Shown in pieces: positions 22,715-35,113 of a stretch of 64,000 nt of DNA. Positions within the stretch are counted from its first letter, which is position 1, and every line of letters begins with the position of its first letter. Below the pieces are notes generated by a model. The model was not told the origin of the DNA, ran no database searches, and worked only from the letters and a program-made list of their open reading frames with translations. The stretch lies in the NCBI GenBank assembly GCA_025677605.1, contig GCA_025677605.1_4110.1. The stretch is one strand, 5' to 3'. The position numbers were made by a program, and so were the translations under genes. Source of the stretch: a phage.

Positions 22715-24154
22715 TTACATATTTTCTTCTGCAAACTCTGCAAGTGCAGAACGTACAACACCTTCCAATTCAATGATACGACACCCTTCCCAATCTTTGA
22801 ATTTTTCAGTTACATATGTCAAACCACTATTAACTGGACTAATAAACTTACTATCAATCTGTGCTAAGTTACCCATAATGATAACCTTACAGTTTTGACC
22901 TGCACGGGTAAGAATAGTTTTTGCCTGTGCAGGGGTGATGTTCTGGAATTCATCAACAATTAGAATTGTATTAGTAAAAGAACGACCACGAATAAAGTTC
23001 AATGCTTTAAACTGCATTACGTTACGTTTGAGAATCTCTTCAATGCTACCTTGTGGGTTAGCATCATCTTTGTGTAGATACTCTAGAGCATCGATTGCAG
23101 CCCCACAGAATGGGATGACCTTTTCAGCTTCAGAACCGGGTAAGAAACCAATTTCTTCAAATTGTGAATCTTGTGTTTTGGAGAAGATGATACGATCGTA
23201 TTTACGCTTCTCTAGTACTAATTCGAGTGAAGTAGCAACAGTAATCAATGTTTTACCAGTACCTGCTGAACCAAGTAGTACTGTCAAATGTACATCAGGG
23301 TCAAGAATACTGTTAATTGCTAGTGCCTGTTGAATATTCTTTGCTTTAATATCCCAAACTTTAGCACGAAGAGCGATACTTTGACCAATATCCTGGAATA
23401 CCAAAATATCTTCAGGTGTTAGTGAACCGTCTTCTTCTTCGATAGCAGATTGACCTTCGTATACGAATAGTACATCAGCATTATCATATAGATAATCACC
23501 AATACATAGATTATCTGGAAGAACATCTTGAATCAATGCGGTTGGAATATAGTGATATAGACGGCGACCTTCTTGTTGGGATTTAATTTCAGCATTGTTA
23601 ACTTCACTGAATGTTTTCCAGAAATCAATATCAAGGTGGTGCTGCCCAATATGAATCAACTCACTATCTTCGATTGCAACGTCATGACGGTAATCTTGTA
23701 CCTCAACACCGTAGCTCATTGCTTTGATACGCATGTTAATGTCGCGAGTTACCAGTACTGATTGTGATGCCAAAGCCACTAGAATGATTTTGTCATCTGG
23801 TACAGTACTTTTAAGTAGAGTTTCTACTTTATCTTCACTGCCGCCCATACGAATAAGTGCTTCAGCTTCTTCATTCGTCATAACGAATAGCTTACTGGAT
23901 GCATCCATATTTTTGTGGATATTGGCAATATTAACACCAGTACTGCTGATTTCTTCATGAGTAGCATCTTTCAAAATTGCATCGATGTTACGGATTGCGA
24001 AACGTGCATCACGTGATACGTCAACATTACGGCTCTTGATTGAATCAAGTTCTTCAAGAACAGTGAATGGTAGAATCACTGCTGCCCCATCAAATGCTAC
24101 GGTTGCATTTGGATCGGATAGTAGTACGTTTGTGTCAATTGTGTATTTTTTCAT
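22715..24154 (-). CDS. phoH: PhoH-family ATPase with N-terminal PIN domain (YlaK-like)
   Basis: Walker A GSAGTGKT; N-terminal PIN-like region; likely ATG at 24154 (MKKYTIDTN) with AGGA RBS. Confidence 0.75.
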   Translation of the reverse strand: MKKYTIDTNVLLSDPNATVAFDGAAVILPFTVLEELDSIKSRNVDVSRDARFAIRNIDAILKDATHEEISSTGVNIANIHKNMDASSKLFVMTNEEAEALIRMGGSEDKVETLLKSTVPDDKIILVALASQSVLVTRDINMRIKAMSYGVEVQDYRHDVAIEDSELIHIGQHHLDIDFWKTFSEVNNAEIKSQQEGRRLYHYIPTALIQDVLPDNLCIGDYLYDNADVLFVYEGQSAIEEEDGSLTPEDILVFQDIGQSIALRAKVWDIKAKNIQQALAINSILDPDVHLTVLLGSAGTGKTLITVATSLELVLEKRKYDRIIFSKTQDSQFEEIGFLPGSEAEKVIPFCGAAIDALEYLHKDDANPQGSIEEILKRNVMQFKALNFIRGRSFTNTILIVDEFQNITPAQAKTILTRAGQNCKVIIMGNLAQIDSKFISPVNSGLTYVTEKFKDWEGCRIIELEGVVRSALAEFAEENM

Positions 24155-24218
24155 AAAACATCCTTGAGTTATGAGCACATCCTTGTGCTCTACGGTAGAT
24201 TATAGACTCAGACACTTC

Positions 24219-24518
24219 TTATTGTGGCTCATAGTCAACGTAGCAGCGGTGACCGCGAGCCTTTTCTGTCCAGCATTCATTGTAAACAATTTGCCCAACT
24301 GAAACTGGTTTCCTTGATGCTCCATACTTAATAGACCCATCTTCAGTCTTATAAGTAAATGAACATGTATTTTCTTCACACTGCCCTATGTCAGTAACAA
24401 CAGCAGTACGGTAGTATATATCTCTGTGTTTGGTTTGATCTTGATGATAAAAGAACCAAAACCCAATAAGAAATATAATACTTGTGATTATAAAGCTTTG
24501 TATATGATGTTTTGTCAA
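24219..24518 (-). CDS. small membrane-anchored protein
   Basis: 99 aa with N-terminal hydrophobic segment IITSIIFLIGFWFFY and Cys-containing extracytoplasmic part. Confidence 0.5.
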   Translation of the reverse strand: MTKHHIQSFIITSIIFLIGFWFFYHQDQTKHRDIYYRTAVVTDIGQCEENTCSFTYKTEDGSIKYGASRKPVSVGQIVYNECWTEKARGHRCYVDYEPQ

Positions 24519-24847
24519 TTGTCCCCTCTCAAAAATCTAAAACCATTCTGTAAGTACGTGTCAATGTTGACCTTCCCTACAGGATTACTGCTATGGATGA
24601 TATAATCGAATTCAGTACTGATATTGTTTTCGACCATATAATCAATTAGAAATTTTGCAAATGAATACCCTGTCTTTTCATCCTCCCCAACATCACCTAA
24701 GTCATGATCGAAGCTAATAAATTGTGGTAAACCATGTTCATTTACATAAGCACATGCACTTTCATAATCACGACATAAAACCATGTTTTGATTTGGATAA
24801 TACTTTTCAGGATCACGAATATCATCCAGAAACATTGAGTAAGACAT
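24515..24847 (-). CDS. hypothetical protein
   Basis: 110 aa ORF, 4-nt overlap with downstream gene. Confidence 0.5.
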   Translation of the reverse strand: MSYSMFLDDIRDPEKYYPNQNMVLCRDYESACAYVNEHGLPQFISFDHDLGDVGEDEKTGYSFAKFLIDYMVENNISTEFDYIIHSSNPVGKVNIDTYLQNGFRFLRGDN

Positions 24848-24858
24848 TATAATTCACC

Positions 24859-25407
24859 TTATAAGTAACTAATCAGTAAATTCTCGGATTGAACAAGATG
24901 TTCTAATTCCATTTTAGCAGTTCCTATGAAGTTTTGTGTCATAAGATTATTATATCCTGCTTCTCGGTTTTGTCCCTTTGAATAACGAGAAATGTGACAT
25001 AAATTAACACCAGCCACTTCTGCACTTGCATGTTTAGCAGTACTGTATCCATCGCGAATCGCTTTCAATTCTTCGTAAGTAACTTCATAACTATAGCTAT
25101 GGGTATGTGCTCCTAGATATAGTTCGTAAGTTTTCAATGGTTTCAATTGTTCGATGAAAATATTATAATTCATCTCTTCCTGAATTTCACGGAATAGTGC
25201 ATCTTCTAAGGTGGCATCGGTATCTTCGACTGTTCCACCACAACCACCCAGTAAACCATCCCAACGAAGCTGGAGTAATACCAGATTCACAACAGGGATA
25301 TCATTTAATTCATAACCTTTATATGGGTTACAATTTCGAGCAAAGAAGTAACAGAATACAAAGTTTGCTCGTTTACCATACTCACCTAGAGGTACTTCTC
25401 GAATCAT
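24859..25407 (-). CDS. Nudix-like hydrolase (divergent Nudix box)
   Basis: GGCGGTVEDTDATLEDALFREIQEEMN resembles Nudix box G-x5-E-x7-REUxEExGU with a short insertion. Confidence 0.5.
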   Translation of the reverse strand: MIREVPLGEYGKRANFVFCYFFARNCNPYKGYELNDIPVVNLVLLQLRWDGLLGGCGGTVEDTDATLEDALFREIQEEMNYNIFIEQLKPLKTYELYLGAHTHSYSYEVTYEELKAIRDGYSTAKHASAEVAGVNLCHISRYSKGQNREAGYNNLMTQNFIGTAKMELEHLVQSENLLISYL

Positions 25408-26156
25408 TTCATTCTATCCTTAATGATAGTTTCCAGTACTGGAATCGCTTTTGTAGCTGGTTTTATAATTTTTTCATTGAACATGAAATCGTTATCATTT
25501 TTTCTGATGTTGATATTAATACTAAAGCATGGCAAACAAGCAACCAGATGTGACCATTTCAGTACTGTGTCACTGCTACCAATGACTACAACTGTATCAT
25601 CTTCTGTTAAGGATTGCAATACTAAATTACGCTCATCGTATATTGGGAGTTTTTCACCATCAACATAACGATAATATTCACCAATGAACACTACGTTTGG
25701 TTTCGCAAAGACACCTTCTTTCGGAATGTACGGTTCATAACCACAATCCACAATACTATAATCGTCACCACCAATTGTAAAATTCTCAATAACTTCTTTT
25801 AAATTACCATGTAACTTTAATTCATTGCCACCAATACGAGTATAGAGATCATCCATATTCGAAGTCATATGTAAAAAGTTATCACCGTATGTATCTTCTA
25901 GAGATTTGATATAATAATGCATATCATTAGGAACACAATCTTTCATTTTAACACGTAATGTGTTATAGAAAGTATGCACTAAATGGTACTTAGTACTAAG
26001 ACGTGCAATGTTACATACATCATTTATTTGAAATTGATCCCATAGGCCATCGTCCATGCGAAACGGTTCCATCCCACTTTCAACGGATAGACCTGCACCG
26101 GAAATAACCAATACACGTTTATTACCTTTATTTTTTATAAAAGAGTCAGAAATCAT
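25404..26156 (-). CDS. Sir2-family (sirtuin-like) NAD-dependent enzyme, no zinc-ribbon module
   Basis: GAGLSVESGMEPFR matches sirtuin NAD-binding motif GAG(I/L)S.ESGIP.FR; LHG catalytic-His motif; 4-nt stop/start overlap with Nudix gene. Confidence 0.75.
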   Translation of the reverse strand: MISDSFIKNKGNKRVLVISGAGLSVESGMEPFRMDDGLWDQFQINDVCNIARLSTKYHLVHTFYNTLRVKMKDCVPNDMHYYIKSLEDTYGDNFLHMTSNMDDLYTRIGGNELKLHGNLKEVIENFTIGGDDYSIVDCGYEPYIPKEGVFAKPNVVFIGEYYRYVDGEKLPIYDERNLVLQSLTEDDTVVVIGSSDTVLKWSHLVACLPCFSININIRKNDNDFMFNEKIIKPATKAIPVLETIIKDRMK

Positions 26157-26365
26157 AGCTTACCTACTGTACCTAATGAACTCAAATCGTATACAAATAA
26201 GATACACACAACCGAGATGACAATGTGATATATCATCCATCCATTGAATTTCTCTTTGTTTTTGATAATTTTATATATACATTTAATATTATTGTACGCT
26301 ACAACTGCTAGAAATACAACAACAAAATAAACAAAGCATAGTGAAAAGTAATTGATAGTTATCAT
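26153..26365 (-). CDS. small membrane protein (two predicted TM helices)
   Basis: 70 aa, two hydrophobic stretches. Confidence 0.45.
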   Translation of the reverse strand: MITINYFSLCFVYFVVVFLAVVAYNNIKCIYKIIKNKEKFNGWMIYHIVISVVCILFVYDLSSLGTVGKL

Positions 26366-26397
26366 AGTTATAATACTCTCCTTATTAAATTAATATA

Positions 26398-26422
26398 GGG
26401 GATTATAAGAATCCCCTTTTTT
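26398..26422. terminator. hairpin with T-run
   Basis: 7-bp stem ggggatt/aatcccc with loop ataag followed by T6 on the plus strand; A/T-rich on the other side. Confidence 0.35.
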
Positions 26423-26425
26423 GTA

Positions 26426-27028
26426 TTACAGCTTAGGATAGCTTAGTAAATCATACTCAGCACTAACGCTGGTAACATTATCACTTACAATTTTGAAGAT
26501 AGAATCGGTGCGATCAACCATCTTAACACCTGTTTCTTTTTGAACTTCAATATATGCTTGCATAGCTGCAATTGCATGATATGTACCACTACCAACAGAT
26601 GTAATTTGTGTCTTAGGTTGGAGTACTGAAAAATCCTCTTGAACTTCATAAATTGTATGATTATGAAGAATAATAAACTGTCCACCACCAACGTCTTGAG
26701 TTGTATCACGAGCACCCCATTCTTCTTTAAATAGTGTGCGAATACGTGGGATTACCTCAAGTACTAAGTACTGTGAGAATGTTTGGTTTGATTGCTGTTC
26801 AGGTAAATCAAGTTTATACGTCAGCAATTGTCCCATGCGGAAGCTCGACGTGTATCCCATTGCCATAACTTCTTTGGTGCGATTCAATCCACTTTCATCG
26901 ATTTTGATGAATTCTTTTTCAAACACTTTTGGTTCAGTTTGAATTGCTTTAGTGAAACCATTACTACCCAGTTTGTCACCCGCGATAAAAGATGTGTTAC
27001 CATCAGTGTAAGCAATAATACAAGTCAT
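26426..27028 (-). CDS. HslV/proteasome-beta-like Ntn-hydrolase
   Basis: N-terminus MTCIIAYTDGNTSFIAGD aligns with HslV TTIVSVRRNGHVVIAGD (Thr1 nucleophile); later SVGSGTYHAIAAMQA resembles the GSG...A motif. Confidence 0.6.
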   Translation of the reverse strand: MTCIIAYTDGNTSFIAGDKLGSNGFTKAIQTEPKVFEKEFIKIDESGLNRTKEVMAMGYTSSFRMGQLLTYKLDLPEQQSNQTFSQYLVLEVIPRIRTLFKEEWGARDTTQDVGGGQFIILHNHTIYEVQEDFSVLQPKTQITSVGSGTYHAIAAMQAYIEVQKETGVKMVDRTDSIFKIVSDNVTSVSAEYDLLSYPKL

Positions 27029-27039
27029 TGATATCTCCG

Positions 27040-27336
27040 TTATAAAAGATGCATTACATCTAAGATTGTGTACATGAAATACAATAGTAAACCCAAAATT
27101 ATGAGTAAAATTGTATACGAAATTTTAAAGAAATAATAAAAGTACTTTTCAGTTTTAGAAGAAAACTCACCATTTTCTTCAAGAAAACCACTCTTGAAAT
27201 CACTTGCCATAATCACTGATAAAAGAACAATGATTCCATATGTAACTATAGTAGCATAGAAGATGAACTCTGTCCAGCCTTGAAGATGTGATAATTCTGT
27301 CATTTTTTGTTTCCTTGGTTGATAATGTACAACCAT
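27040..27336 (-). CDS. small membrane protein
   Basis: 98 aa with several hydrophobic segments. Confidence 0.5.
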   Translation of the reverse strand: MVVHYQPRKQKMTELSHLQGWTEFIFYATIVTYGIIVLLSVIMASDFKSGFLEENGEFSSKTEKYFYYFFKISYTILLIILGLLLYFMYTILDVMHLL

Positions 27337-27430
27337 TATATCTTAAAATCGGGTGGCAGTACACCACCCTTAACCAAAATCATGAATTAGTATTAGGATT
27401 ATATCATTGCTTCATAAAAAATACAACTTT

Positions 27431-28036
27431 TTATTGAATGATTCCCCATTTAACGAGATCTGATCTTCGTAATACAACGATATCCTCACCATGTTTAGTA
27501 CTGATATCAATGAGTGTTTCAGCGGGGATACCGTTATGTGCGTACAGTGTAAAAAGATACCCAACTTTAGTTGAGACTTGATGTGTAAACTCCATCAACT
27601 GTCTAACTGAAACGAATGTCGTATCTGGATCTGCACCATTCGTAGATACTAGTGAGATGTTATGTAAACCCATCACTGCGGTATCACTCATATCCCTACG
27701 TTCAGATGATGCAGAGAAAAAAACCAGACTACAAGACGAATTACATTGCTTTGGGACATAAACAGTTAACTTTTTAGCAGCCACAAAAAATCCCAAATCT
27801 AATCCTGCATCAAAATCTCCACCAGGTGATGTTATTGTTATAATTTTAAATCTTGTTTCTTTCCACAACTTCTTCACTTCTTGTACAGTTTCATCATTTA
27901 GTTCACCATCAATTGACACAACATGTTCATTTAATAGAAAAACAGATGATTTTTTTGAAACTTCTGCCGCTGCCGGAAAGTTTAATGCAGCGATTAAAAC
28001 AACGGTTTGTACAATCTCTTTCAAGATTCGTTTCAT
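27431..28036 (-). CDS. secreted ClpP/S49-like serine-protease-fold protein
   Basis: N-terminal signal peptide ending AAAEV; ITSPGGDFDAGLDL resembles the ClpP INSPGG..AGLAIYD motif. Confidence 0.45.
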   Translation of the reverse strand: MKRILKEIVQTVVLIAALNFPAAAEVSKKSSVFLLNEHVVSIDGELNDETVQEVKKLWKETRFKIITITSPGGDFDAGLDLGFFVAAKKLTVYVPKQCNSSCSLVFFSASSERRDMSDTAVMGLHNISLVSTNGADPDTTFVSVRQLMEFTHQVSTKVGYLFTLYAHNGIPAETLIDISTKHGEDIVVLRRSDLVKWGIIQ

Positions 28037-28234
28037 TGATTACCTCGGATTTGAGTTAAGGAACATAAATAATAGTACAATAATTGATCAATTATGTCAA
28101 GTGCAAAACTGAACAATTATGACTGTAGTATCAAGTGTTTTTGTTAAGTTCATTGATTTACCAATTGACCATTTGAACTATGGTATCATATTGGGAGGCA
28201 GTTTACAATCCCATTTTTAAGGTAAGGAGATGTT
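28037..28234. promoter_or_regulatory. divergent intergenic control region
   Basis: 198-bp AT-rich gap between divergent genes; TTGACC and TATCAT hexamers, GTTTAC at 28201, duplicated CAATTATG and palindrome TTGATCAA; AAGGAG RBS before ATG 28235. Confidence 0.35.
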
Positions 28235-28750
28235 ATGAAACCAATAGCTGGCTTAGATCAATTTCCATTTGTTATAGGTGGATTGCAGGTTACTGCTGCA
28301 AAGATAGAAGGGCAAGTATTTGTTAAAGAATTGTATGTTATAAAACAAAGAACATTCGATTCATATGATTTAATATCTGAAAATTTCAAGATTTACAAAG
28401 ATATAAAAATCACAGGTAGAAATAAAGATAAATCAACATTGTTGTATGATGATGACGATGCTGAAATTGCTAAATCTTTAGCAAATAATACATTTTGCAT
28501 AAAAGAAGCTGATGCTATTAATAATAAGTATGGTTTTGGTATTCAATATCAAAGTAATAAAATAAAATTACATAATGGTGAAATAATTTTCAGAAGAACG
28601 AACGTGGAGCCAAATTCGTTGTCTAAAGTTATAATAAAGCCAGATGATTTTGTTCTTTATTCAAATGATAAAATGCAATTCACTGCTTACTTCTCTCCGA
28701 AAGATTGGCCTGACCAAACCAGATTTCCACCGTATGCTCGTTTCCAATAA
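28235..28750 (+). CDS. island paralogue A (shared N-terminal domain only)
   Basis: 171 aa; AAGGAG RBS; N-terminal ~130 aa homologous to N-termini of the two following plus-strand ORFs. Confidence 0.8.
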   Translation: MKPIAGLDQFPFVIGGLQVTAAKIEGQVFVKELYVIKQRTFDSYDLISENFKIYKDIKITGRNKDKSTLLYDDDDAEIAKSLANNTFCIKEADAINNKYGFGIQYQSNKIKLHNGEIIFRRTNVEPNSLSKVIIKPDDFVLYSNDKMQFTAYFSPKDWPDQTRFPPYARFQ

Positions 28751-28761
28751 CTTTATATTTT

Positions 28762-28788
28762 AAGGAGTCTTCGGACTCCTTTTTTTAA
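28762..28788 (+). terminator. rho-independent terminator
   Basis: stem ggagtc/gactcc with TTCG tetraloop (28764-28779) followed by T8. Confidence 0.7.
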
Positions 28789-28810
28789 TCCTAAAATACT
28801 TTTGGTATAA

Positions 28811-28818
28811 TATAAATA
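28811..28818 (+). promoter_or_regulatory. T4-type late promoter motif TATAAATA
   Basis: tataaata located 37 nt upstream of ATG 28855, after the terminator. Confidence 0.4.
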
Positions 28819-28854
28819 ATATAACACTACAATACAATTTATAAAGGAAAGTAT

Positions 28855-31023
28855 ATGAAAGCAATATCTAGTGAAGGTAAATTGCCTTTTGGTATTGGTG
28901 GTATTAAAGTTTCTGTCGCTAAAATCGATGGTAAGGTGTTAACCGAAACTTTATATATTAACCGTCAACGTTCCGGTAACGTGTATGATCTCATCAATGA
29001 TAATGGTGATATCTATTACAAAGTTTCCATGCGTTGGTATGATACTCGTGGTATCGACATTCCAAATTCTGTTGAACCAGCAGACGCAATTAATATGGTT
29101 CAAGACAATTCATTCATGATCTATGTTGATGATGGTATTAGCATGGGATATACTATGCTTTATATGGGTCGTGTTATTAAATTAAATAATGGTCGCATCG
29201 TAAAACGCGATTATGTTAATGCTGATATCCCCGTAACTGGTGTTGTAATTACACCCAAAGATGCATCTCTTAAAGTTGGTGCAACAAAACAACTATCAGC
29301 CCAAGTAGTTCCATCTAATGCAAAAGACAAGGCAGTAACCTACTCTTCATCTGCTCCTACAATCGTTGAAGTTGATGCTCAAACAGGTCTAGCAACTGCA
29401 CTTGCAAATGGCAATGCTGATGTAACCGTAACAACTCACGATGGTGATTTCACAGATGTGTGTTCTATCGTTGTCAGTACTGGTGTTACAGGTGTTACTG
29501 TTTCTCCTAAAACTGCAACGGTGAATGTTGGAGAAACTCAACAATTGTTAGCTGAAGTTTCTCCTGCATCTGCAACTGATAAGAAAGTTACATGGGCTTC
29601 ATCTGCTCCATCCGTTGCAACAGTTGATAAAGATTCTGGGTTGGTAACAGGTGTATCCAATGGTGATGTTACTATTACTGCAACAACTGAAGATGGTTCA
29701 TTGACTGATACTTCTTCTATTAAAGTTCAAACAGCAGTAACTGGTGTTACGTTAACACCTGAAACATATACATTCACTACTATTGGTGCAAATGAACCAT
29801 TAACAGCAACGGTACTACCAAGAACTGCATCAAATCAGGAAGTTCGTTATGAATCTTCTGCACCTACAGTAGCAGAAGTTGATGATGACGGTTTAGTAAC
29901 TTCTGTTAATAATGGTACTGCCACTATTACCGTAACAACTATTGATGGTGAAAAAACCGCACAATCAATTATTGATGTGACGATCCCAGTAACTGGTATT
30001 AACCTAACACCTGCAACCGCTTCATTAACTTCTGTTGGTGCAACACAGCAATTAACTGCAACTGTTCTACCAGCTAATGCTCGTAACAAAGCAGTAACAT
30101 ACGCAACTTCTGCTGCTGGTGTTGCAACCGTTAGTACAAGTGGTTTAATCACTGCGGTAGCGAATGGCACTGCTAATATCACGGCTACTACTGCTGATGG
30201 TGGCTTTAGTAAAGTTTGTGCAGTAACTGTAGCAATTCCAGTTCCAGTAACAACTATTAATGTTACTCCAGCAACTAAAACATTGACTGCTGTTAACGCA
30301 ACTCAAGCAATGGCTGCTGAAGTTCTTCCAGCTAACGCAACTAATAAAGCTGTAACATGGTCTTCTAGTGCACCTGCTGTAGCGAAAGTTGATGCTAGTA
30401 CTGGTGTTGTAACTGCGTTAACTAACGGTACTGCAAACATTATCGCAACTGCCGCTGATGGAAGTGGTAAAACAGGTCAAGGTGTCATTACTGTGTCAAT
30501 CCCAGTTCCTGTAGCTAGTGTTTCTGTTTCTCCAACAACAGCAACATTAACATCTGTTGGTGCAACTCAACAACTAACACCAACTGTACTACCAGCTAAT
30601 GCTACTAACAAAGCAGTAACTTATAGTACTTCTGCTGCTGGGGTCGCAACTGTTAGTGCAAGTGGTTTAATCACTGCTGTTGCAAACGGTACTGCTGATA
30701 TCACTGTAAAAACTACTGATGGTGCAAAAACTGCAAAATGTGCTGTAACTGTTAATATTCCAGTACCAGTATCCAGCGTTGGTTTAACACCTAAAGCCAC
30801 TGATCTTTCACTATCAGGTACTAAAACAGTTCAACTAGTTCCAGAAGTTCTTCCAGCTAACGCAACTAACAAATCAGTAACTTATAGTGCAGATGAACCT
30901 ACTAAAGTATCTATTAGTGATGATGGATTAGTAACTGCTCTAGAAGAAGGTACTGTAGTCATTACAGTGACTACTGTGAATGGCAATAAAACTGATACTG
31001 CAACTGTAACAATCAGTGCTTAA
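28855..31023 (+). CDS. island paralogue B: shared N-terminal domain fused to seven tandem Big_2 (bacterial Ig-like) domains
   Basis: 722 aa; N-terminal domain paralogous to A and C; then seven ~85-aa repeats of pattern VTGV.. P.tat..vG.tqqL.a.VLPanAtnK.VT..SS.p.vAtV...GlvTav.nGTa.ITa.T.DG. Confidence 0.85.
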   Translation: MKAISSEGKLPFGIGGIKVSVAKIDGKVLTETLYINRQRSGNVYDLINDNGDIYYKVSMRWYDTRGIDIPNSVEPADAINMVQDNSFMIYVDDGISMGYTMLYMGRVIKLNNGRIVKRDYVNADIPVTGVVITPKDASLKVGATKQLSAQVVPSNAKDKAVTYSSSAPTIVEVDAQTGLATALANGNADVTVTTHDGDFTDVCSIVVSTGVTGVTVSPKTATVNVGETQQLLAEVSPASATDKKVTWASSAPSVATVDKDSGLVTGVSNGDVTITATTEDGSLTDTSSIKVQTAVTGVTLTPETYTFTTIGANEPLTATVLPRTASNQEVRYESSAPTVAEVDDDGLVTSVNNGTATITVTTIDGEKTAQSIIDVTIPVTGINLTPATASLTSVGATQQLTATVLPANARNKAVTYATSAAGVATVSTSGLITAVANGTANITATTADGGFSKVCAVTVAIPVPVTTINVTPATKTLTAVNATQAMAAEVLPANATNKAVTWSSSAPAVAKVDASTGVVTALTNGTANIIATAADGSGKTGQGVITVSIPVPVASVSVSPTTATLTSVGATQQLTPTVLPANATNKAVTYSTSAAGVATVSASGLITAVANGTADITVKTTDGAKTAKCAVTVNIPVPVSSVGLTPKATDLSLSGTKTVQLVPEVLPANATNKSVTYSADEPTKVSISDDGLVTALEEGTVVITVTTVNGNKTDTATVTISA
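29236..31020 (+). repeat. tandem array of seven Big_2-coding repeats (~255 bp each)
   Basis: repeat units 4 and 6 (about 30010-30180 and 30550-30720) are roughly 85 percent identical at DNA level by eye. Confidence 0.7.
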
Positions 31024-34417: not shown

Positions 34418-35113
34418 TTATACCCACTCTTCCACGCCACCGCGACGTTTAACTAGGTATTGACCTTTTTCATTACGTGGACCAAGGATAATACCATCGA
34501 TAAATCCAAGTTCACCATACTCAAGTGCTTCATCTGCACTCAACCACAAATCGCGGTCCGCATCTTCTAGTAGTTTTTCATGAGAAACACCTACAGCTTC
34601 AGCGATTTCTTTCGTCAGCAATGTGTTCAATGCATCAGAGTGTTTTAGTGCAATTTTCTGATCAGTGATCAGACCTTGTGTACCAGAACTTACTTGGTGA
34701 CACATAAAGTACGAGCGTTTACCACCAAGACGATAACCTTTAGTACCAACTACTGATTGTGTGTAGCAACCCATTGATGCTGCATAACCCATCACTACTG
34801 TGCGGATTGGTGATACACAAGATTTAGCAATATCAGAAATACCCAAACCTGCATGAACACTACCACCCGGCGAGGAAATATAAAGAGTAATTGGTTCAGA
34901 ACCTTGAGAATCCAACCACACCAATTGTTGCTTGATGATATGTGCCATCTGGTCGTTGAAATCAGTATCAAGGAAAATGATACGGTCTTGCATCATACGA
35001 GATGCTAGATCATAAGTACGTTCGTTGCCATTAACTTTTTCAACTACATATGGAATTGAAATGTTAGTTGTTTCACCATTCGCATAACCACCAAACATAA
35101 ATTGTTGAGTCAT
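34418..35113 (-). CDS. clpP: ATP-dependent Clp protease proteolytic subunit-like serine peptidase
   Basis: ISSPGGSVHAGLGI, catalytic GYAASMG, HQ and DRD motifs collinear with ClpP. Confidence 0.85.
   Translation of the reverse strand: MTQQFMFGGYANGETTNISIPYVVEKVNGNERTYDLASRMMQDRIIFLDTDFNDQMAHIIKQQLVWLDSQGSEPITLYISSPGGSVHAGLGISDIAKSCVSPIRTVVMGYAASMGCYTQSVVGTKGYRLGGKRSYFMCHQVSSGTQGLITDQKIALKHSDALNTLLTKEIAEAVGVSHEKLLEDADRDLWLSADEALEYGELGFIDGIILGPRNEKGQYLVKRRGGVEEWV

What the first reader, a model, noticed from the sequence alone, without database searches (positions are those of the whole stretch)
26153..28036. HslV/proteasome-like hydrolase and a signal-peptide ClpP-like protein flanked by small membrane proteins
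ORF 26426-27028 begins MTCIIAYTDGNTSFIAGD, matching the mature N-terminus and Thr1 nucleophile region of HslV/20S beta subunits, with no HslU-like ATPase visible nearby. Divergently adjacent to the plus-strand island is a ClpP/S49-like protein with an N-terminal signal peptide (27431-28036); two small membrane proteins sit between them. A standalone proteasome homologue plus an exported ClpP-like protein is an unusual combination for a T4-like phage.
Basis: partly seen in the sequence, partly recalled or inferred. Interest (0 to 1): 0.65.

Follow-up and report, generated by a model that had tools for sequence, protein, structure and literature searches.

The report
Orphan HslV-like and exported ClpP-like peptidases
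A giant E. coli phage carries, side by side, a stand-alone relative of the proteasome/HslV peptidase and a secreted relative of ClpP; both folds and catalytic residues are real, but both genes are already annotated in related phages, their functions are untested, and comparative genomics gives no sign that they work as a pair.

The parts
28072..28100 (-). sigma-70-like promoter match TTGACA-17-TACTAT upstream of the ClpP-like gene, in the 198-nt divergent intergenic region
   Evidence: 10 of 12 matches; sequence, with GAGGT 5 nt before the ATG. This is a consensus match only. The region as a whole has no more promoter-like sites than shuffled sequence (31 found, 26 expected).
27431..28036 (-). 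Exported ClpP-fold serine peptidase candidate (201 aa). Leader is residues 1-24 (nt 27965-28036, predicted cleavage AAA|EV). Motifs: SPGGDF at 70-75, C98-x-S100-x-C102, and H125.
   Evidence: PHROG 26024 'protease' 5.6e-61. Pfam CLP_protease only 14.6 bits, below the cutoff. AF2 pLDDT 86.6. Foldseek top hits are ClpP, SppA and 1510-N at E 1e-8 to 1e-7. S100 and H125 align with the ClpP Ser and His. S70, G72, G73, C98, S100, C102 and H125 are invariant down to 20% identity. Leader analysis.
27040..27303 (-). Small membrane protein with two hydrophobic segments (87 aa from the RBS-supported ATG; the longest ORF runs to 27336)
   Evidence: Conserved in PBECO4 as an unannotated 86-aa ORF (38% identity, E 2e-19) whose stop overlaps the HslV-like start.
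26426..27028 (-). Stand-alone proteasome-beta/HslV-superfamily N-terminal threonine peptidase candidate (200 aa). After Met removal the residues are Thr1, Asp17, Lys33, Gly57 and G145-S-G147. The genus has its own insertion at about residues 37-55, between strands S3 and S4.
26397..26417 (.). 8-bp GC-rich hairpin directly after the HslV-like stop codon (terminator-like, with the T-run on the plus strand only)
26153..26365 (-). Small membrane protein with two hydrophobic segments (70 aa). Its stop overlaps the Sir2 start (ATGA).
   Evidence: PBECO4 has a 64-aa counterpart.
22715..26156 (-). Downstream context on the same strand: Sir2 (25404-26156), Nudt16-like Nudix (24859-25407), cREC receiver domain (24515-24847), membrane protein (24219-24518) and PIN-PhoH (22715-24178)
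34418..35113 (-). Canonical phage ClpP (231 aa, with AASMG, CHQ and DRD motifs), separate from the finding
   Evidence: (PF00574, 7.7e-42).

Best explanation
These are two independent accessory peptidase genes. They sit in a same-strand block that starts at a sigma-70-like promoter match, so they may be expressed early. (1) The 200-aa protein is a cytoplasmic N-terminal-nucleophile threonine peptidase of the proteasome-beta/HslV/BPH group. Host methionine aminopeptidase would remove Met1 and expose Thr1, with no propeptide, as in E. coli HslV. Thr1, Asp17, Lys33 and the GSG loop form the active site. By homology it probably self-assembles into a ring-shaped chamber. The phage encodes no HslU, and the loop after helix 2 is about 8 residues longer than in HslV. 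It most likely acts without a dedicated phage unfoldase, on peptides or loosely folded host or phage proteins during takeover. (2) The 201-aa protein is exported through Sec by a cleavable leader or signal anchor. It would act in the periplasm as an ATP-independent ClpP-fold serine peptidase, working in the manner of SppA or NfeD rather than ClpP. Ser100 and His125 would be the catalytic pair, and the nucleophile turn may be braced by a C98-C102 disulfide. Its likely targets are envelope proteins or peptides. Shown here: the folds, the conserved residues, the leader, the gene order, the phylogenetic distribution, and absence from a published virion proteome. Inferred: catalytic activity, oligomeric state, disulfide, compartment, expression timing and substrates.

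For: ClpP-like protein. ClpP fold. S100 and H125 align with the ClpP Ser and His and are invariant. Every family member, including bacterial relatives with textbook signal peptides, has an N-terminal hydrophobic leader, and most have small residues at -3 and -1. Between this phage and PBECO4, exported and membrane proteins of the block are 38-52% identical, while cytoplasmic ones including the HslV-like protein are 75-86%. This fits a different compartment and selective regime.

Independence of the two genes. Gene orders in RaK2, XaC1, Hallingskeid and L004, and in T5-like, Vibrio, Aeromonas and Salicola phages.

Not morphogenetic. A separate S77 prohead protease lies next to the scaffold and capsid genes. 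phAPEC6 gp345c and gp346c are absent from the 62 proteins found by virion mass spectrometry (PMC7247149).
Against: No biochemical data exist for either family, and the held literature has no characterisation. The window HslV-like protein itself does not reach the Pfam Proteasome or NCBIfam HslV cutoffs. The ClpP Asp171 equivalent is not conserved in the ClpP-like family. No SignalP-type predictor was available, and some family members have Gln at -1, which argues for an uncleaved anchor. One distant contig (L002) has a ClpP-fold gene, a TM gene and an HslV-like gene in the same order as here, so a functional link is not excluded. Host HslU is available in E. coli and could serve as a partner. 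The promoter is only a consensus match.
Confidence: 0.55

Rival explanations
1. The HslV-like protein hijacks the host unfoldase HslU (ClpY). It would form a hybrid ATP-dependent protease that redirects host proteolysis, which would explain why the phage needs no HslU of its own.
For: By sequence profile the closest solved relatives are HslV proteins. Most phages with this family infect gamma-proteobacteria (Salmonella, Escherichia, Vibrio, Aeromonas, Klebsiella, Yersinia); that these hosts, and E. coli in particular, possess HslUV is background knowledge, not tested here. The protein has no propeptide and starts MT-, as E. coli HslV does (alignment).
Confidence: 0.2
2. The ClpP-like protein, TM87 and the HslV-like protein form one trans-envelope proteolytic module. 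The periplasmic peptidase would make a first cut in a membrane protein, and the cytoplasmic chamber would degrade the released fragment, in the manner of regulated intramembrane proteolysis cascades.
For: The three genes are adjacent on one strand in every Asteriusvirus record examined here, and both genes are present in all roughly 40 Asteriusvirus records. In PBECO4 the TM86 stop overlaps the HslV-like start. One distant contig (L002) repeats the order ClpP-fold (with the same CxSxC...H motif), TM, HslV-like.
Against: In RaK2, XaC1, Hallingskeid and L004 the exported ClpP-like gene has no HslV-like neighbour. In T5-like, Vibrio, Aeromonas and Salicola phages the HslV-like gene has no annotated ClpP-like neighbour. 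The L002 ClpP-fold protein has no leader, and its similarity is weak (hhalign E 0.0036, probability 9%). A hairpin and promoter-like sequence separate the ClpP-like gene from TM87. The membrane proteins next to the HslV-like gene in different lineages are unrelated.
Confidence: 0.07
3. The ClpP-like protein is a cytoplasmic second ClpP subunit (ClpP1/P2-style). It would assemble with the phage's canonical ClpP and ClpA/B-like ATPase, and its N-terminal helix would not be an export signal.
For: The phage encodes ClpP (PF00574, 7.7e-42), a two-module AAA+ Clp ATPase and a ClpS-like protein. Top Foldseek hits include ClpP1P2 heterocomplexes. BLASTP to the phage ClpP gives E 3e-5 over the SPGG region.
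Against: Hydrophobic leaders with AXA-type sites are conserved across the whole family, including bacterial members with canonical signal peptides. There is no conserved Asp at the triad position. Two invariant cysteines flank the nucleophile. The protein diverges fast, like the neighbouring membrane proteins. The family does not reach the Pfam ClpP cutoff.
Confidence: 0.1
4. One or both proteins are head-maturation (morphogenetic) proteases, as some GenBank records annotate the ClpP-like gene.
For: The vB_Ec-M-J record labels the ClpP-like gene 'head maturation protease'. ClpP-fold prohead proteases exist in other phages (PHROG hits).
Against: A T4-type S77 prohead protease lies beside the portal, scaffold and major capsid genes. 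Neither protein is in the phAPEC6 virion proteome. The leader peptide is incompatible with a role in capsid assembly.
Confidence: 0.03
5. The HslV-like protein is not a degradative peptidase. It would be a specific ligase or transpeptidase like archaeal connectase, or another Ntn amidase.
For: The only Pfam hit for the window protein is Connectase MJ0548_N, on residues 1-19 (E 0.007, below cutoff). The genus-specific insertion lies at the S3/S4 site, where connectase carries its substrate lid (PMC8665760).
Confidence: 0.05

Closest known systems
HslV (ClpQ), the peptidase of bacterial HslUV
   Different: Only about 15-18% identity. It fails the NCBIfam HslV equivalog cutoffs. There is no hslU gene beside it or anywhere in the phage genome. 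The loop after helix 2 is longer. The genus has its own S3/S4 insertion.
BPH (beta-proteobacterial proteasome homologue; PDB 5ovs, 5ovu)
   Different: The sequence-profile match is weak (E 7e-4). BPH is bacterial. Its heptameric double ring and its long acidic pore loop could not be tested here.
Phage-associated proteasome homologues PPH, AAH and CPH (Fuchs, Alva and Lupas 2021, PMC8665760); PHROG 1040 'peptidase HslV family'
   Same: These are group I proteasome-like proteins encoded by tailed phages with the catalytic triad conserved and no experimental function. The window protein is a clear PHROG 1040 member.
   Different: It is not PPH, which is about 140 aa and lacks helix H2. This protein is 200 aa and has all four helices. 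Whether it falls in AAH, CPH or an unsampled cluster could not be tested because the reference sequences were not retrievable.
ClpP (MEROPS S14)
   Same: Same fold (Foldseek E about 1e-8, TM 0.6-0.7). It has the SPGG motif, and Ser and His sit at the ClpP catalytic positions with the same 25-residue spacing.
   Different: It is below the Pfam and NCBIfam cutoffs. A hydrophobic leader replaces the N-terminal axial loops. There is no conserved triad Asp. It carries an invariant C-x-S-x-C motif. It is predicted to be outside the cytoplasm, so it cannot use an ATPase. The phage has a separate, canonical ClpP.
SppA (S49) and the NfeD/1510-N stomatin-specific protease
   Same: These are ClpP-fold, ATP-independent peptidases that act at or beyond the membrane. 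Both appear among the Foldseek hits (4kwb, 6m4b), and Pfam gives a weak NfeD1b_N hit.
   Different: They use a Ser-Lys dyad, whereas this family conserves Ser and His. There is no stomatin or OB-fold partner and no tandem domains. The scores are not better than for ClpP.

Membership tests
Proteasome-beta / HslV superfamily (Ntn hydrolase, MEROPS T1) | alpha-beta-beta-alpha Ntn fold of proteasome beta subunits | tested here: met
Proteasome-beta / HslV superfamily (Ntn hydrolase, MEROPS T1) | N-terminal Thr nucleophile with Asp17, Lys33 and the Gly47-type oxyanion glycine | tested here: met
   T2, D18 and K34 are invariant and G58 is nearly invariant in 29 homologues. T2, K34 and G58 are also invariant across nine distant phage lineages. 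The start codon is fixed by the RBS and by being the first start after a stop.
Proteasome-beta / HslV superfamily (Ntn hydrolase, MEROPS T1) | Pfam PF00227 gathering score | tested here: not met
   The window protein gives no PF00227 hit at E up to 1. Family members do pass: the T5-like fuchur gp084 scores 38.3 bits against a 22.4 cutoff, and several homologues carry precomputed PF00227.
HslV sensu stricto | Equivalog-level sequence similarity (NCBIfam TIGR03692 / NF003964) | tested here: not met
   19-20 bits against cutoffs of 137-158.
HslV sensu stricto | Partner AAA+ gene hslU in the same operon or genome | tested here: not met
   No HslU-like ORF in the window or in the A4 genome. The AAA+-type proteins found there are a ClpA/B-like double-module ATPase, an ATPase encoded next to a VWA-domain protein (Pfam AAA hit just below the cutoff), a clamp loader and a 256-aa P-loop protein.
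HslV sensu stricto | Dodecameric double hexamer activated by HslU C-termini | not testable with these tools
   No multimer prediction or biochemistry was available.
PPH (Fuchs et al. 2021) | About 140 residues, lacking helix H2 | tested here: not met
   200 aa, with helices at 63-72, 84-104, 149-166 and 170-184. Definition taken from PMC8665760.
PHROG 1040 'peptidase HslV family' | Significant match to the family profile | tested here: met
   E 3.6e-21 over residues 1-193. The same PHROG is hit by homologues from T5-like and Aeromonas phages and from L002.
ClpP (S14) | ClpP/crotonase fold with the handle helix | tested here: met
   AF2 pLDDT 86.6. Foldseek gives ClpP E 1.6e-8 to 1e-7 and TM 0.60-0.72.
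ClpP (S14) | Ser-His-Asp catalytic triad | tested here: inconclusive
   S100 and H125 are invariant and align with the ClpP Ser and His. The position matching Asp171 (D185 here) varies (D, E, R, N, Q).
ClpP (S14) | Pfam PF00574 / NCBIfam ClpP cutoffs | tested here: not met
   14.6 bits against 20.2, and 17.9 against 251. One distant family member, P0101, passes at 31.3 bits.
ClpP (S14) | Cytoplasmic protein that docks an AAA+ unfoldase through N-terminal axial loops | tested here: not met
   The N-terminus is a hydrophobic leader with an AXA-type site, conserved across the family. This rests on heuristic analysis only, with no SignalP.
SppA / NfeD (S49-type) | Ser-Lys catalytic dyad | tested here: not met
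   No lysine is invariant across the wide alignment, while His125 is. K157 is conserved only among close relatives.

The most novel reading that the evidence does not exclude
The exported ClpP-fold peptidase, the small membrane protein TM87 and the cytoplasmic HslV-like chamber act together as a phage-encoded trans-envelope proteolytic relay. The periplasmic enzyme would make a first cut, and the released fragment would be degraded in the cytoplasm. The target would be a host membrane protein such as a receptor, stress sensor or defence sensor. The module would occupy the genomic slot that RaK2-like relatives use for NAD+-salvage counter-defence genes.
Probability: 0.07. Interest if true: 0.75.

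Novelty: new member of a known kind. Interest (0 to 1): 0.3.

Why it matters
Stand-alone proteasome homologues are common in phages: 198 of 50,697 phage genomes carry this family. None has a known substrate, partner or phenotype. An E. coli phage copy with an intact catalytic apparatus is a tractable entry point, because host genetics (delta-hslU, delta-hslV), inhibitors and proteomics are all available. The exported ClpP-fold family with its invariant C-x-S-x-C...H signature passes no Pfam cutoff, has thousands of distant relatives (some bacterial), and is used by a whole group of jumbo phages. If it is active, it would be a phage-deployed periplasmic peptidase, for which I recall no characterised precedent. 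As it stands the finding re-identifies annotated genes. The pairing that made it look special is a genus-specific neighbourhood.

Tried and rejected
(1) Direct sequence search of both proteins against PDB gave nothing, so profiles and structure prediction were needed.

(2) A profile of the ClpP-like family against PDB gave only a sub-threshold ClpP match (E 0.28). The assignment rests on the fold search.

(3) I looked for an HslU or AAA+ partner. A Walker-A scan of the window and of the A4 genome, followed by Pfam, found a Clp-type system but no HslU.

(4) I tested whether the membrane protein upstream of the HslV-like gene is a conserved partner. The T5-like neighbour is an unrelated DUF3307 protein. 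The idea is rejected as a family-wide feature.

(5) I tested the head-maturation idea. It is rejected on the separate S77 protease and the phAPEC6 virion proteome.

(6) I tried to assign the protein to one of the Fuchs et al. clusters (AAH or CPH). The supplement holds no sequences, so this was left open.

(7) C-terminal extensions of long family members look like HeH/Rho_N motifs, but Pfam support is only E 0.068. They are not relevant to the window protein.

(8) Literature searches for any functional study of phage HslV-like proteins found only annotation-level mentions.

(9) The PhoH-like ATPase recurs near the HslV-like gene in four lineages. I considered it as a partner and set it aside, because Pfam assigns it to PhoH and related P-loop NTPase families rather than to the classical AAA family, it is a virion protein in phAPEC6, and the shared neighbourhood is the general nucleotide-metabolism early region.
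Full report
**What is in the sequence**

The region holds four ORFs on the minus strand. In order of transcription they are:
- 28036-27431, 201 aa, the ClpP-like protein.
- 27336/27303-27040, a small protein with two hydrophobic segments.
- 27028-26426, 200 aa, starting MTCIIAYTDGNTSFIAGD, the HslV-like protein.
- 26365-26153, 70 aa, with two hydrophobic segments.

The same strand continues with Sir2, a Nudt16-like Nudix hydrolase, a cREC receiver domain, another membrane protein and a PIN-PhoH ATPase.

Upstream of the ClpP-like gene is a 198-nt intergenic region that faces plus-strand structural genes starting at 28235. It contains a TTGACA-17-TACTAT match and a GAGGT ribosome-binding site. 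This is a consensus match only. The whole region has no more promoter-like sites than shuffled sequence.

The HslV-like start is the first start codon after a stop and has GGAG 7 nt upstream. The membrane ORF between the two peptidase genes most likely starts at 27303 (87 aa, AAGGAA RBS), as annotated in phage A4. The 70-aa ORF ends in an ATGA overlap with Sir2. An 8-bp GC-rich hairpin follows the HslV-like stop.

**What phage this is**

Positions 24000-29000 of the window are 98.6% identical to Escherichia phage A4 (355.5 kb, genus Asteriusvirus) and about 75-85% identical in part to other Asteriusvirus records. These are RaK2-like jumbo myoviruses, not T4-like phages. They do carry a T4-type S77 prohead protease.

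In A4 the two genes are annotated 'protease' and 'ClpP/crotonase-like domain protein'. In RefSeq PBECO4 they are 'peptidase HslV family' and 'protease'.

**The HslV-like protein**

By direct sequence search it matches nothing in PDB, and in Pfam only a sub-threshold stretch of the connectase N-terminal domain. It matches PHROG 1040 'peptidase HslV family' at 3.6e-21.

Sixty-five homologues were found. In an alignment of 29 of them, M1, T2, C3, D18, K34, G146 and G148 are invariant and G58 is nearly so. After removal of Met1 these are Thr1, Asp17, Lys33, the oxyanion glycine and the GSG loop of proteasome beta subunits. Removal of Met before Thr by methionine aminopeptidase is established knowledge. 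The residue definitions follow PMC8665760.

The family profile hits solved HslV structures at 2e-9, actinobacterial proteasome beta at about 3e-4 and BPH at 7e-4.

The AlphaFold2 model is confident (pLDDT 90.8). Its fold matches are:
- Foldseek: HslV at 2e-9 and BPH at TM 0.69-0.75.

All four flanking helices are present, so the protein is not the roughly 140-aa PPH type of Fuchs et al. It sits in their 'group I' (HslV/BPH/AAH/CPH/PPH). Which cluster it belongs to could not be determined.

It does not qualify as HslV proper. The NCBIfam equivalog scores are 19-20 bits against cutoffs of 137-158. The loop after helix 2 is about 8 residues longer than in HslV (alignment). The Asteriusvirus proteins also carry their own roughly 15-residue insertion between strands S3 and S4.

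**Distribution and neighbours of the HslV-like family**

tblastn finds the family in 198 of 50,697 phage records. These include all Asteriusvirus, a large number of T5-like Epseptimavirus phages, and Aeromonas, Vibrio, Yersinia, Erwinia, Salicola, Moorella and Geobacillus phages. The T5-like member passes the Pfam Proteasome cutoff.

In these genomes the gene sits in early nucleotide-metabolism regions (RNR, TS, DHFR, dCMP deaminase, PhoH, ligase), and no ClpP-like gene is annotated next to it. Aeromonas phage 2L372D has two adjacent paralogues.

The literature held here describes phage proteasome homologues bioinformatically (PMC8665760) and notes HslV without HslU in a Salmonella jumbo phage (PMC7823757). 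I found no functional study.

**Is there an ATPase partner?**

In the window, only two ORFs of at least 100 aa match the Walker-A pattern G-x4-G-K-[ST]: PIN-PhoH and polynucleotide kinase. I read the whole A4 genome and scanned it. Pfam shows a two-module ClpA/B-type AAA+ protein (761 aa), a canonical ClpP (PF00574, 7.7e-42; in the window at 34418-35113), a ClpS-like protein, and an ATPase next to a VWA-domain protein. There is no HslU.

So the phage has its own Clp system elsewhere, and the HslV-like protein is an orphan. It either works alone, like BPH, or uses host HslU. This cannot be decided computationally with the tools available.

**The ClpP-like protein**

Sequence methods give only sub-threshold ClpP and NfeD hits, although PHROG 26024 'protease' matches at 5.6e-61.

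The family alignment has invariant SPGGDF, C98, S100, C102 and H125. In the profile alignment to a solved ClpP, S100 falls on the catalytic Ser (AAS*M), and H125 falls on the residue after '...VMI', which is the catalytic His. The Ser-to-His spacing is 25 residues, as in ClpP. The position matching the triad Asp is not conserved.

The AF2 model (pLDDT 86.6) has an N-terminal helix at residues 2-19, a disordered linker, and then a ClpP fold. Foldseek returns ClpP at 1e-8 to 1e-7, and also SppA and the NfeD-type 1510-N protease.

An exhaustive profile search found 9,699 cluster representatives at E up to 1e-3 and 377 at up to 1e-10. A sample down to 20% identity keeps S70, G72, G73, C98, S100, C102 and H125. 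These relatives include chromosomal bacterial proteins, for example from Ferrimonas balearica, and one member that passes the Pfam ClpP cutoff.

Every aligned member starts with a hydrophobic leader. Most have small residues at -3 and -1; here the site is FPAAA|EV after residue 24. The bacterial relatives have textbook signal peptides. No SignalP was available, so export is a strong inference rather than a result. Two invariant cysteines bracket the nucleophile, which fits an oxidising compartment. I could not measure their distance in the model.

**Are the two peptidases a pair?**

Among phages the exported ClpP-like gene is confined to RaK2-like jumbo phages, in 48 records. In RaK2, Xanthomonas phage XaC1, Erwinia phage Hallingskeid and a metagenomic relative (L004), it sits in the same place, after dCMP deaminase and an opposite-strand structural gene. 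There it is followed by an NMNAT-type cytidyltransferase and NAMPT, and in RaK2 and L004 the recorded stretch continues to Sir2 (with Acb1 before it in L004). No HslV-like gene is present in these stretches.

Asteriusvirus has the TM87, HslV-like and TM70 genes in that slot instead. The pairing is therefore genus-specific.

One observation points the other way. A distant contig (L002) has PhoH, a leaderless ClpP-fold protein with the same C-x-S-x-C...H motif, a TM protein, an 82-aa protein and an HslV-like gene. The similarity is weak (hhalign E 0.0036).

Between this phage and PBECO4, the cytoplasmic proteins of the block are 75-86% identical (HslV-like 79%). The ClpP-like protein and the three membrane proteins are only 38-52% identical. 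This fits different compartments and different selective regimes.

Neither protein is among the 62 virion proteins of phAPEC6, whereas the flanking PhoH (gp341c) and gp347 are (PMC7247149). A separate S77 prohead protease lies next to the scaffold and capsid genes. A morphogenetic role is therefore unlikely.

**Most likely mechanism**

Confidence is 0.55 for the package.

The HslV-like protein is a cytoplasmic Thr1 peptidase, probably ring-forming. It is possibly made early and acts without a phage-encoded unfoldase.

The ClpP-like protein is secreted to the periplasm. There it acts as an ATP-independent Ser/His peptidase on envelope proteins or peptides, working like SppA or NfeD rather than like ClpP.

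The two are independent accessory functions placed in a variable slot. In relatives that slot carries NAD+-salvage and anti-CBASS-type genes, so a role in host takeover or counter-defence is plausible but unshown.

The rivals are:
- Hijack of host HslU (0.2).
- A cytoplasmic ClpP2-like subunit (0.1).
- A trans-envelope module with TM87 (0.07).
- A connectase-like non-degradative enzyme (0.05).
- A head-maturation role (0.03).

**Verdict**

Its sense of rarity was not: both genes are conserved and already annotated in this phage genus, the HslV-like family is widespread in phages and described in the literature, and the adjacency is not conserved beyond the genus.

The finding is a new member of known but functionally uncharacterised kinds. 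The most useful by-product is the C-x-S-x-C...H signature, together with the leader, of a large family of exported ClpP-fold proteins that has no Pfam assignment. Interest is 0.3.

Noticed in passing
window 22715-26156 (-), and L004, L013, L021, L022: Directly downstream of the finding lies a block of Sir2, Nudt16-like Nudix, cREC receiver domain, membrane protein and PIN-PhoH. In RaK2-like relatives, the slot held here by the HslV-like cassette carries NMNAT-Nudix and NAMPT (plus Acb1 in L004), and in L004 the Nudix and cREC domains are fused. This looks like a variable island for NAD+/ADP-ribose metabolism and counter-defence.
   Followed up: partly
window 34418-35113 (-); A4 178050-180335, 263162-263707, 153818-156621: The phage encodes its own Clp system: a canonical ClpP with an intact Ser-His-Asp triad, a 761-aa two-module ClpA/B-like AAA+ protein and a ClpS-like adaptor. 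It also has an ATPase paired with a protein carrying a DUF2201 putative-metallopeptidase domain and a VWA-like domain, two GroES homologues and a DnaJ-like protein.
   Followed up: partly
window 24219-28036 compared with L014 (PBECO4): Between this phage and PBECO4, cytoplasmic proteins are 75-86% identical. The exported ClpP-like protein and the three small membrane proteins are only 38-52% identical, so the envelope-located products diverge much faster.
   Followed up: yes
P0068/P0069 (phage UE-S1 type) in alignment A2: The ClpP-like protein of UE-S1-type phages looks mosaic. Its N-terminal half resembles the window/A4 allele, while residues from about 78 onward are nearly identical to the PBECO4 allele. 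This suggests recombination within the gene.
   Followed up: no
L014 3744-4004 and 4622-4816 (PBECO4 NC_027364): RefSeq PBECO4 leaves both small membrane ORFs that flank the HslV-like gene unannotated. The 86-aa ORF's stop overlaps the HslV-like start codon (ATGA).
   Followed up: yes
L017 4001-5454 (Aeromonas phage 2L372D); L019 3501-4484; P0048, P0053: Some phages carry two adjacent HslV-family paralogues (183 and 294 aa). Others have long forms with an acidic linker and a C-terminal motif resembling HeH/Rho_N (Pfam E 0.068 only). This hints at hetero-oligomers and at nucleic-acid tethering in parts of the family.
   Followed up: partly
L002 4668-5435: A leaderless 255-aa ClpP-fold protein (PHROG 1827) carries the same C-x-S-x-C...H motif as the exported family. 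It sits three genes upstream of an HslV-like gene, with a one-TM protein in between.
   Followed up: partly
window 28235-28750 (+) and 28855-31023 (+): The plus-strand island encodes a 171-aa virion-protein homologue and a 722-aa protein with many Ig-like repeats. The two share a similar N-terminal segment (MK..., G.LPF.IGG..V..AKI.GkV). In A4 the first ORF is annotated as two short pieces (A4_466 and A4_465), which suggests a frameshift or an annotation difference between A4 and the window.
   Followed up: no
Asteriusvirus, L002, L017, L019: A PhoH-like ATPase gene lies within one to six genes of the HslV-like gene in four separate phage lineages. In phAPEC6 the PhoH-like protein is a virion component (8 peptides).
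   Followed up: partly
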